DNA of 64,000 bases from Octopus vulgaris (taxonomy: Eukaryota): NCBI GenBank assembly GCA_951406725.2, contig OX597825.1:81158001-81222000 (forward strand), given 5' to 3'. Under the pieces are notes generated by a model. That model was not told where the DNA came from and ran no database searches. It was given only the letters and a program-made list of their open reading frames with translations. Shown here piece after piece: positions 48,373 through 51,035 of the stretch (the first letter of the stretch is position 1; each line of letters begins with the position of its first letter). A program made the translations under genes and the position numbers.

Positions 48373-48439
48373 AGTGTGTGTATGTGTGTGTGCGTGCATA
48401 GAATACGGTCTACTTCATAGCGAGTAGAATCTATCTATC

Positions 48440-48845
48440 TGTTTCAGTTATTTTTACCGTAGCCATGCTGGACCACCGCCTTTTAGTCGAAGAAATCGAC
48501 CCCTACACTTATTTTTTGTAAGCCTGGTACGTGTTCTATCGGTACCTTAGGACTAACCGCTAAGTTAAGGGGACGTAAACACACCGAGATCGGTTGTCAA
48601 GCGATGGTGAAGGGACAAACACAGACACAAACACACAAGTATATATATGTGTGTGTGTGCATGTGTGTTTGTCTGTGTGTGTATACGACGGGCTTCTTTC
48701 AGTTTCCGTCTACCAAATCCACTCACAAGGCTTTGGTCAACTCGGGGCTATAATAAAAGACACTTGCTCTAGGTACCACGCAGAGAGACTGAACCAGGAA
48801 CCATGTGTTTGGGAAGCAAGCTACTTACCAAACAGCCACGCCCAC
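48440..48845 (-). mobile_element. SINE B, full length
   Basis: Reverse match to 39018-39480. Confidence 0.85.
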
Positions 48846-49469: not shown

Positions 49470-49852
49470 CTTTTATTCTTTTATTCTTTCACTTCAGTCA
49501 ATTGACTGCGGCCATGCTGGAGCACCGCCTTTAGTCGAGCAAACCGACTCCAGGATTTATTCTTTGTAAGCCTAGTACTTATTCAATCGGTCGCTTTTGC
49601 CGAACCGCTAAGGTAAGGGGATCGAAACACACCAGCATCGGTTGTCAAGCGATAGTGGGGGGGGGGGGGGGCAACACGGACACACACACACACACACGCA
49701 CACACGCACACATATACATACAATGGGCTTCTTTCAGTTTCCATCTACCAAATCCACTCACAAGGCATTGGTCGTAGAAGACACATGCCCAAGGTGCTCC
49801 ACAGTAGGACTGAACCCGGTTGGCTAGCAAGCTACTTACCACACAACCACTG
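49470..49852 (-). mobile_element. SINE B, near full length
   Basis: Reverse match with small deletions. Tail-only fragments also at 49928-50005 (-) and 50268-50350 (+). Confidence 0.85.
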
Positions 49853-49930
<78 letters not shown>

Positions 49931-50111
49931 GTTTATCCTTTTACTTGTTTCAGTTATTTGACTGTGGCCAGGCTGGAGCACCGCCTTTAGTCATACAAAT
50001 CGACTACATATATATATTCATGCATGTATATATACATACATATATATATATATATATGTATGTGTATATATATATATATGTATATATATATATAAATATA
50101 TATATATATGC

Positions 50112-50270
<159 letters not shown>

Positions 50271-50458
50271 TAAGTCCTGGGGTCGATTTGCTCGATCAAC
50301 TAAAAGCGGTGCTCCAGCATGGCCACAGTCAAGTGACTAAAACAAATAATAGAGTATATATACAGATAGATATATAAGTGTATATATCTTAGTGTGTATA
50401 TATATATATGTATATATGTATGTGTGTGTGTGTGGATATATATATATATATGTATGTA

Positions 50459-50654: not shown

Positions 50655-50716
<62 letters not shown>

Positions 50717-50748
50717 CATATATACATTTATATATATGTATATGTATA

Positions 50749-50796
<48 letters not shown>

Positions 50797-50797
<1 letters not shown>

Positions 50798-51035
50798 TTT
50801 ATTTAAAGCAGCAGAAAATTCAACAAAATCTGTTACTCTGAGTTTCTCGTTGCCGTTCATCGAATCGATATATCGGTTCCATTCTAGCAAAAACTGTCTG
50901 ATGAACGGCAACGAGAAACTCAGAGTAACAGATTTTGTTGAATTTTCTGCTGCTTTGAATAAAGCATATTACTCTACCACTGGTATTTGAGTACTCTTTT
51001 TTCCGCCTTGTTTCACATTTATGTGTTTACTCCGG
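50797..51035 (+). mobile_element. (TA)n-embedded fold-back element with hammerhead
   Basis: 65-bp arms 50797-50861 / 50900-50964 with one mismatch. AATAAA at 50958-50963. The tail ends CCGG|(TA)n. Confidence 0.85.
50894..50931 (+). ncRNA. Minimal type I hammerhead ribozyme
   Basis: CTGT-CTGATGA(50898-50904)-aCG GCAA CGa-GAAA(50915-50918)-CTC A GAG-TA-ACAG. Confidence 0.78.

What the first reader, a model, noticed from the sequence alone, without database searches (positions are those of the whole stretch)
50797..51035. Compact, nearly intact hammerhead in a young fold-back insertion
Seen: a 38-nt motif with 4-bp stem I, GCAA-capped stem II and CTC-A-GAG stem III, with GUA triplet and AATAAA about 30 nt downstream. 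The inverted arm stops inside the core (..TTCATC). The stem II closing pair is A.A in both arms. Established: such short stem III hammerheads generally need dimerisation to cleave. This is the best single candidate for an activity test.
Basis: partly seen in the sequence, partly recalled or inferred. Interest (0 to 1): 0.7.

Follow-up and report, generated by a model that had tools for sequence, protein, structure and literature searches.

The report
Standard hammerhead of a Penelope retroelement
This is one of thousands of identical copies of a small, likely self-cutting RNA motif carried at the end of a jumping gene of a known group; this copy is predicted to be a poor one to test, and the family's insertions were copied from RNA that had not been cut.

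Summary
The motif, fold-back, A·A and AATAAA are real. The stretch is two 5'-truncated ends of a young Hydra-clade Penelope-like element (intact 711-aa ORFs elsewhere with RWK, DKT, CxCX5C) joined head to head in (TA)n, an architecture described by Craig 2021, whose supplement lists a near-identical hammerhead. A·A is no lesion: 3530 of 3607 exact core matches have it; older subfamilies have A·G or A-U, none of 72 has G-C. Stem I is longer than read (to about 50881-50943) and covaries across sister families. This copy is a poor test candidate: the arm sequesters the core, and a private G at 50957 is predicted to misfold the proposed construct (stem I probability 0.06 against 0.92). One extra: 0 of 101 copies begin at the predicted cut site, while 27 begin at 50881-50886, the 5' base of the ribozyme (genome-wide 94% span the cut site, 58% span 50881). 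This suggests uncut templates with a fixed RNA 5' end. Cleavage is untested.

The parts
50659..50796 (.). (TA)n target tract, left flank (left limit approximate)
   Evidence: sequence
50797..50861 (-). Inverted 5'-truncated element end, 65 bp; starts at core G5 and ends at the family's short 3' end (equivalent of 50964)
   Evidence: end class
50862..51035 (+). 5'-truncated 3' end (pLTR part) of the Hydra-clade Penelope-like element, ending at the family's long 3' end
50879..50885 (+). Initiator-like CCATTCT (consensus recalled); A50881 is the hard 5' limit of about 70% of sampled copies, inferred RNA 5' end
   Evidence: inference
50881..50892 (+). 5' strand of distal stem I (pairs with 50933-50943)
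50894..50897 (+). 5' strand of proximal stem I (pairs with 50928-50931)
50898..50904 (+). Hammerhead core CUGAUGA (C3-A9)
50905..50914 (+). Stem II: A·A at 10.1/11.1, two C-G/G-C pairs, GCAA loop
50915..50917 (+). Core G12 A13 A14
50918..50926 (+). Palindromic ACUC-A-GAGU, predicted intermolecular stem III (-7.4 kcal/mol as a duplex)
50927..50927 (+). N17 of the GUA triplet; predicted cut 3' of it
   Evidence: hammerhead numbering from established knowledge
50957..50957 (+). Private G (A in 39 of 40 arms read in L001-L030 and in this insertion's own left arm); predicted to favour a competing hairpin 50920-50958
50958..50963 (+). AATAAA, directly before the short 3' end; role as poly(A) signal not tested; no A8 run at any of 101 copy ends
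50965..51035 (+). 71-nt 'tail' between the family's two 3' ends (inferred two reverse-transcription start sites)
   Evidence: PMC11167929
51036..51049 (.). (TA)n target tract, right flank

Best explanation
The stretch is a head-to-head insertion of two 5'-truncated ends of a young Hydra-clade Penelope-like retroelement, and the motif is that family's standard minimal hammerhead, predicted to cut only as a dimer and likely blocked at this locus by the inverted arm. Shown: family identity, copy number, A·A as main-subfamily consensus, two fixed 3' ends, one of each per inverted pair, no copies starting at the cut site. Inferred: the element protein cuts both strands of a (TA)n tract, primes one cDNA at each of two internal start sites (50964 and 51035) on uncut RNA, and the two cDNAs are joined by their growing ends, which gives the fold-back. 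Inferred: in the element RNA two hammerheads (5' and 3' pLTR, 3365 nt apart, or two RNAs) pair through the palindrome and cut slowly after A50927, probably with protein help; the non-standard pair at the base of stem II is a clade trait. Inferred: most short copies are run-off products from an RNA that begins at about A50881, the first base of the ribozyme fold.
For: Element: copies L011 and L023 run on into an ORF; open frames of 727 codons in L043, L044 and a 762-codon frame in L045; 711-aa protein with RWK, DKT, YRDD, CNCKNESSC and a C-terminal GxxY..YxG, the features given for Hydra in PMC8557442 section 11. File S2 of that paper lists Hydra-2_aMil with the same stem I, stem III palindrome and cut base, and U·U at the stem II base in 14 of 25 Hydra families by my count. 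A·A: 3530 of 3607, non-A at 50905 in 7. Structure under selection: 430 matches with another base at 11.1 keep the palindrome while its central base and loop II vary; distal stem I pairs better with its own partner than with others (-4.1 against -2.9 kcal/mol, 28 sequences, permutation p about 1e-4). Dimer: cofold of two copies of 50885-50940 or 50882-50943 gives the double hammerhead, monomers do not form the core. Ends: 57 short, 42 long, 2 other of 101; 30 of 32 inverted pairs have one short and one long end, none has two alike. Uncut templates: 0 of 101 starts at 50925-50931; 8456 of 9038 matches span the cut site. Fixed 5' limit: 27 of 101 starts at 50881-50886, 3 at 50861-50880; 2213 of 3805 extend 4 nt past 50882.
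Against: No cleavage data; no raw RNA reads to show ends. Absence of a cut-site footprint also fits a dead ribozyme. 29 of 72 parsed copies have C at core position 4. No Pfam, NCBIfam or PDB match for the protein, and no tree was built, so clade placement rests on motifs. The covariation test counts related sequences, perhaps 4-6 independent families. The window's own right copy starts at 50862, upstream of the 50881 limit, so it is not a run-off product of that RNA end. The sample is the first 33.4 Mb of one contig and needs an exact 26-mer.
Confidence: 0.85

Rival explanations
1. One reading: the A·A is damage in an otherwise intact ribozyme, and this locus is the best activity candidate.
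For: G10.1-C11.1 is called highly conserved in PLE hammerheads (PMC4209133); core and triplet are intact here.
Against: A·A in 3530 of 3607 matches; G-C in 0 of 72 sampled copies; U·U common in the clade; arm and G50957 predicted to block folding.
Confidence: 0.03
2. The hammerhead of this lineage no longer cuts; it is kept as a folded signal (protein binding, promoter or RT-start context) or is drifting.
For: No copy starts at the cut site; 10.1/11.1 drifts among A·A, A·G, A-U, U·U and position 4 between U and C; in a lizard PLE the ribozyme was not needed for insertion in vitro and no reads ended at its cut site (PMC11167929).
Against: Core letters, cut triplet and palindrome are kept across diverged sister families while neutral loop letters change; the lizard ribozyme did cut when protein was added.
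Confidence: 0.2
3. The pile-up of 5' ends at 50881-50886 marks a stop of reverse transcription or a joining hot spot (CTAG palindrome, hairpin in the new cDNA), not an RNA 5' end.
For: 8 of the 27 starts lie at 50884 beside the CTAG palindrome, several as symmetric junctions; the limit coincides with the base of the predicted hairpin.
Against: Copies that are not fold-backs also start at 50881-50886; loss per base rises towards 50881 and then drops about 30-fold (4.5 to 0.15 starts per base), as expected for run-off plus trimming; transcription starts lie in the pLTR of two studied PLEs.
Confidence: 0.3

Closest known systems
Hydra-clade Penelope-like elements and their hammerheads (Craig et al. 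2021, PMC8557442; section 11, passages and supplement parts 1-2 read), closest listed motif Hydra-2_aMil
   Same: RWK, DKT, CxCX5C linker, C-terminal GIY-YIG, (TA)n targets, inverted 5'-truncated copy, tail at one end; hammerhead with CTGT/ACAG stem I, ACTC-N-GAGT stem III, cut after A; non-standard pair at the stem II base in many families.
   Different: A·A rather than U·U or G-C; only two standard pairs in stem II; unit 3365 bp against 'generally <3 kb'; tail 71 nt against 30-40; hammerhead differs from that of the one cephalopod family listed (Hydra-1_oBim), so this is another family.
Minimal hammerheads of metazoan PLEs (Cervera and de la Pena 2014, PMC4209133; parts 1-2 of 4 read)
   Same: Type I topology, in the pLTR, palindromic stem III, mostly solo truncated copies and opposite-strand pairs, dimer-dependent low activity reported.
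   Different: No G10.1-C11.1, no extra base after A9, very short stem II, covarying extension of stem I.
Poseidon element PAc of the green anole (Frangieh et al. 2024, PMC11167929; parts 1-2 of 4 read)
   Same: Two internal RT start sites bounding a tail; both strands of AT-rich DNA cut and extended; uncut RNA is the main template.
   Different: Other clade; there the ORF starts inside the ribozyme, here 205 nt after C3; here the evidence is genomic only.

Membership tests
Hydra-clade PLE | Single ORF, RT then C-terminal GIY-YIG endonuclease | tested here: met
   711-aa ORF with YRDD at 344 and GVVY..YTG at 580; by motif only, no Pfam/NCBIfam/PDB hit
Hydra-clade PLE | RWK motif and DKG changed to DKT | tested here: met
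   RWK at 37, DKT at 113
Hydra-clade PLE | CxCX5C linker; CxxC and CxH near the C-terminus | tested here: met
   CNCKNESSC at 562, CRLC at 667, CRH at 695 in L044
Hydra-clade PLE | Insertion into (TA)n | tested here: met
   94 of 101 3' flanks TA-rich; both flanks here
Hydra-clade PLE | Length generally under 3 kb | tested here: inconclusive
   unit 3365 bp; the paper says 'generally' and lists incomplete consensi
Hydra-clade PLE | Falls in the Hydra clade of an RT tree | not tested
   reference proteins lie only in a paper supplement, not as stored sequences
PLE (structure) | pLTR, inverted 5'-truncated copy, optional tail | tested here: met
Naiad PLE | N-terminal endonuclease, DKA motif | tested here: not met
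   endonuclease is C-terminal, motif is DKT
Minimal type I hammerhead | Core C3 U4 G5 A6 N7 G8 A9, G12 A13 A14, A15.1-U16.1, H17 | tested here: met
Minimal type I hammerhead | Palindromic stem III allowing a dimer | tested here: met
   duplex -7.4 kcal/mol; cofold gives double hammerhead; central base varies
Minimal type I hammerhead | G10.1-C11.1 pair | tested here: not met
   A·A; also unmet in 14 of 25 listed Hydra motifs that the authors call canonical, so not defining for this clade
Minimal type I hammerhead | Site-specific self-cleavage | not testable with these tools
   no bench data; no raw RNA reads served

The most novel reading that the evidence does not exclude
The insertion ends record two template classes and so give the PLE hammerhead a job: linear mRNA begins at A50881, the first base of the ribozyme, and internal priming on it yields only 84- or 155-nt run-off copies (about 70% of the thousands of insertions), whereas full-length, more-than-unit copies need the 3' end placed upstream of a start site, which the two hammerheads supply by cutting as a dimer and closing a 3365-nt circle. 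All 5 full-length copies with a 5' pLTR reach 73-567 nt past 50881 (2 of the 5 were picked by a query that required this). A variant with A·A at 10.1/11.1 and a GNNA loop docking on a bulged stem I would be an active natural form not in the lists I saw.
Probability: 0.25. Interest if true: 0.65.

Novelty: new member of a known kind. Interest (0 to 1): 0.32.

Why it matters
As a single locus it is ordinary. The family is useful: it is young, has intact ORFs and about 9000 end copies, so it is a good substrate for the open question of what hammerheads do in Penelope-like elements. Its copy ends already say that templates are uncut and point to a fixed RNA start at the ribozyme's first base, which makes the linear-versus-circular template model directly testable.

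Tried and rejected
Rfam: no match at gathering score in the window and no hammerhead family among 15 weak matches around the finding. Protein libraries: no Pfam, NCBIfam or PDB match; the Atlas could not read the sequence; the search of representatives had not finished when I stopped, so no result is used. RNA evidence: no RNA holder listed and only contigs are held; contigs of 4 runs cannot show ends, showed no joint inside 50862-51035 that reads as an intron, and are not used as evidence. Splice acceptor at TTCTAG|C (50887/8) as cause of the 5' limit: rejected, since copies share no upstream exon and the AG is AA in many copies and absent in sister families. Naiad membership, my first guess from the N-terminus: rejected. 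Cut-site footprint in 5' ends: looked for, not found. Lunse et al. 2017 on dimeric PLE hammerheads is not held; I know it only through a review passage (PMC6765202), and it or its supplement may list A·A variants. Literature searches for a described 5' limit at the ribozyme or for this family returned only PMC8557442, PMC11167929 and a retrozyme preprint (part 1 of 5 read); most subscription papers are not searched.

Full report
Observation. The motif 50894-50931 has stem I CTGT/ACAG, core CTGATGA at 50898-50904, A50905 facing A50914, a 2-bp stem II with GCAA loop, GAA at 50915-17, ACTC-A-GAGT at 50918-26 and the triplet GTA ending at 50927. AATAAA is at 50958-63. The left arm 50797-50861 is complementary to 50900-50964 at 64 of 65 places and ends at core G5. 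Both flanks are (TA)n. Rfam has no match at gathering score in the window and no hammerhead among weak matches.

What it belongs to. A DNA search of the own genome (2.8 Gb) gave 1197 candidates, the best 98% identical over 175 nt. Two of the 30 loci run on past 51035 into an ORF. Stretches fetched between paired cores hold open frames of 727 codons (L043, L044) and 762 codons (L045). The L044 protein has 711 aa with RWK (37), DKT (113), YRDD (344), CNCKNESSC (562), GVVY..YTG (580), CRLC and CRH. Craig et al. 2021 (PMC8557442; section 11, passages and supplement parts 1-2 read) define the Hydra clade of Penelope-like elements by RWK, DKT, a CxCX5C linker, a C-terminal GIY-YIG domain, (TA)n targets and canonical hammerheads, and describe inverted 5'-truncated copies and a tail at one end as typical of PLEs. 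Pfam, NCBIfam and PDB gave no match and no tree was built, so the placement rests on motifs. The unit is 3365 bp.

The A·A pair. With A at 50905 the 32-mer core has 3607 exact matches, reversed control 0; 77 of them have another base at 50914 (60 G, 14 T, 3 C by my count of the listing); 7 matches have another base at 50905. These patterns need U at core position 4 and so favour the youngest subfamily. In a sample not chosen by the core (101 copies from the first 33.4 Mb of contig C1, anchored on a downstream 26-mer with 8466 matches), 78 reach C3 and 72 could be parsed: A·A 42, A·G 19, A-T 9, A·C 2, G-C 0; 29 of 72 have C at position 4. A looser pattern found 430 motifs with a non-A at 11.1, mostly sister families with A-T or T·T, loops GGAA, GTTA or GTCA and a varying central base in the palindrome. 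File S2 of PMC8557442 shows U·U at this place in 14 of 25 Hydra families (my count) and lists Hydra-2_aMil with the same stem I, palindrome and cut base; no A·A is listed. Cervera and de la Pena 2014 (PMC4209133, parts 1-2 of 4) call G10.1-C11.1 highly conserved in the motifs they found. So A·A is the normal state of the expanding subfamily and a variant of a clade trait, not damage.

Fold. Stem I continues past an A·A loop with 8 or more pairs (50885-92 with 50933-40; pair probabilities 0.89-1.0 for 7 of the 8, 0.29 for the outermost); in a natural copy read from 50881 the fold begins at the first base. Across 28 sequences the distal strands pair better with their own partner than with others (-4.1 against -2.9 kcal/mol, permutation p about 1e-4; letter shuffle -1.6); these sequences are related, so the test is softer than the p value. 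As a monomer the predicted fold does not form the core; two copies of 50885-50940 or 50882-50943 cofold into the double hammerhead with the palindrome as stem III; two copies of the bare 38-mer form the palindrome duplex but not stem I. This matches reports that such motifs cut only as dimers and slowly (PMC4209133; review passage in PMC6765202).

This copy as a test object. Read on the + strand with its arm, stem I has probability near 0 and the arm duplex 1.0; the - strand copy lacks C3, U4 and half of stem I. G50957 is private (A in 39 of 40 arms in L001-L030) and flips the proposed 50880-50960 construct to another hairpin: stem I probability 0.06 against 0.92 for the same stretch of L003. 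These are predictions, but they point away from 'best candidate'.

Insertion ends. 3' ends fall in two classes, 50964 (57 of 101) and 51035 (42 of 101), 2 other; 94 of 101 continue into TA-rich DNA and none has an A8 run. Of 32 inverted pairs 30 have one end of each class and none has two alike. Frangieh et al. 2024 (PMC11167929, parts 1-2 of 4) showed for a lizard PLE that both strands of AT-rich DNA are cut and extended, that reverse transcription starts at two internal sites bounding the tail, that the ribozyme cuts only with protein, and that uncut RNA is the main template. I infer the same route here: one cDNA from each start site, joined head to head.

5' ends. None of 101 copies starts at 50925-50931 (18 start at 50901-50924, 1 at 50933); genome-wide 8456 of 9038 matches that begin at 50928 keep the 4 bases upstream (93.6%). 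Templates were therefore uncut. In contrast 27 of 101 start at 50881-50886, 24 at 50887-50900, only 3 at 50861-50880, and 28 further upstream (27 against 3, binomial p 1e-14, a window chosen after seeing the data). Genome-wide 2213 of 3805 matches (58%) extend 4 bases past 50882 (1990 with the strict pattern); in the sample 10 of 37 such copies start there and 6 are long copies with variant letters, so part of the genome-wide drop is sequence variation. A50881 sits in CCATTCT, which fits the initiator consensus as I recall it, and transcription starts lie in the pLTR of Penelope and of a Chlamys element (passages of PMC2377424 and PMC8557442). My reading is an RNA 5' end at about 50881 (about 65%); a stop or joining hot spot at the hairpin base and CTAG palindrome is the rival. 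Several sister-family copies also seem to begin 12-17 nt before C3 (by eye, not counted). Against a simple picture: the window's own right copy starts at 50862, and all 5 full-length copies with a 5' pLTR reach 73-567 nt past 50881 (2 were selected for that), so long copies need another template, a tandem read-through RNA or a circle closed by the hammerheads. The circle idea is in PMC4209133; I cannot tell the two apart.

Novelty. The element kind, the hammerhead kind, the fold-back and the tail are in print. The family, its A·A form and the 5'-end profile were not found in my searches, but the most relevant paper on small PLE hammerhead variants was not available and bioRxiv supplements are closed. 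The scan's own notes on this genome concern permuted hammerheads of Naiads and a retrozyme; the look-up by sequence showed nothing. Verdict: new member of a known kind, interest 0.32.

Noticed in passing
L044:991-8598 (G000:C1:64213500-64223000): A 7.6-kb palindrome of two full-length elements, each with a 5' pLTR, 99.8% identical over 3528 bp; the + copy has an intact 711-aa ORF, the - copy a frameshift.
   Followed up: partly
window 50901-50957; L044:5165-5221: The ATG inside the core opens an 18-codon upstream frame in L044, out of frame with the main ORF; subfamilies with C at core position 7 lack this ATG. A cut at 50927 would remove it.
   Followed up: no
window 50862-50880: Imperfect hairpin around GATATATC upstream of the ribozyme; several fold-back junctions (L009, L013, L014, L018) lie at or near it.
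   Followed up: no
L050-L077: Older sister families with the same hammerhead frame, loops GGAA/GTTA/GTCA and a bulged, covarying stem I; 430 matches in the genome.
   Followed up: partly
window 19889, 36106, 47454 (+): CTGATGA..GAAA words without a convincing stem I or triplet; probably chance.
   Followed up: partly
window 48429-48798, 49493-49819, 49935-50008, 50275-50345: Several copies of another interspersed repeat, 75-93% alike, SINE-like; not studied.
   Followed up: no
L039:615-2741 and L011:1-850: A LINE-type RT frame and a Tc1/mariner-like fragment (labels from recall) flank one full-length element.
   Followed up: no
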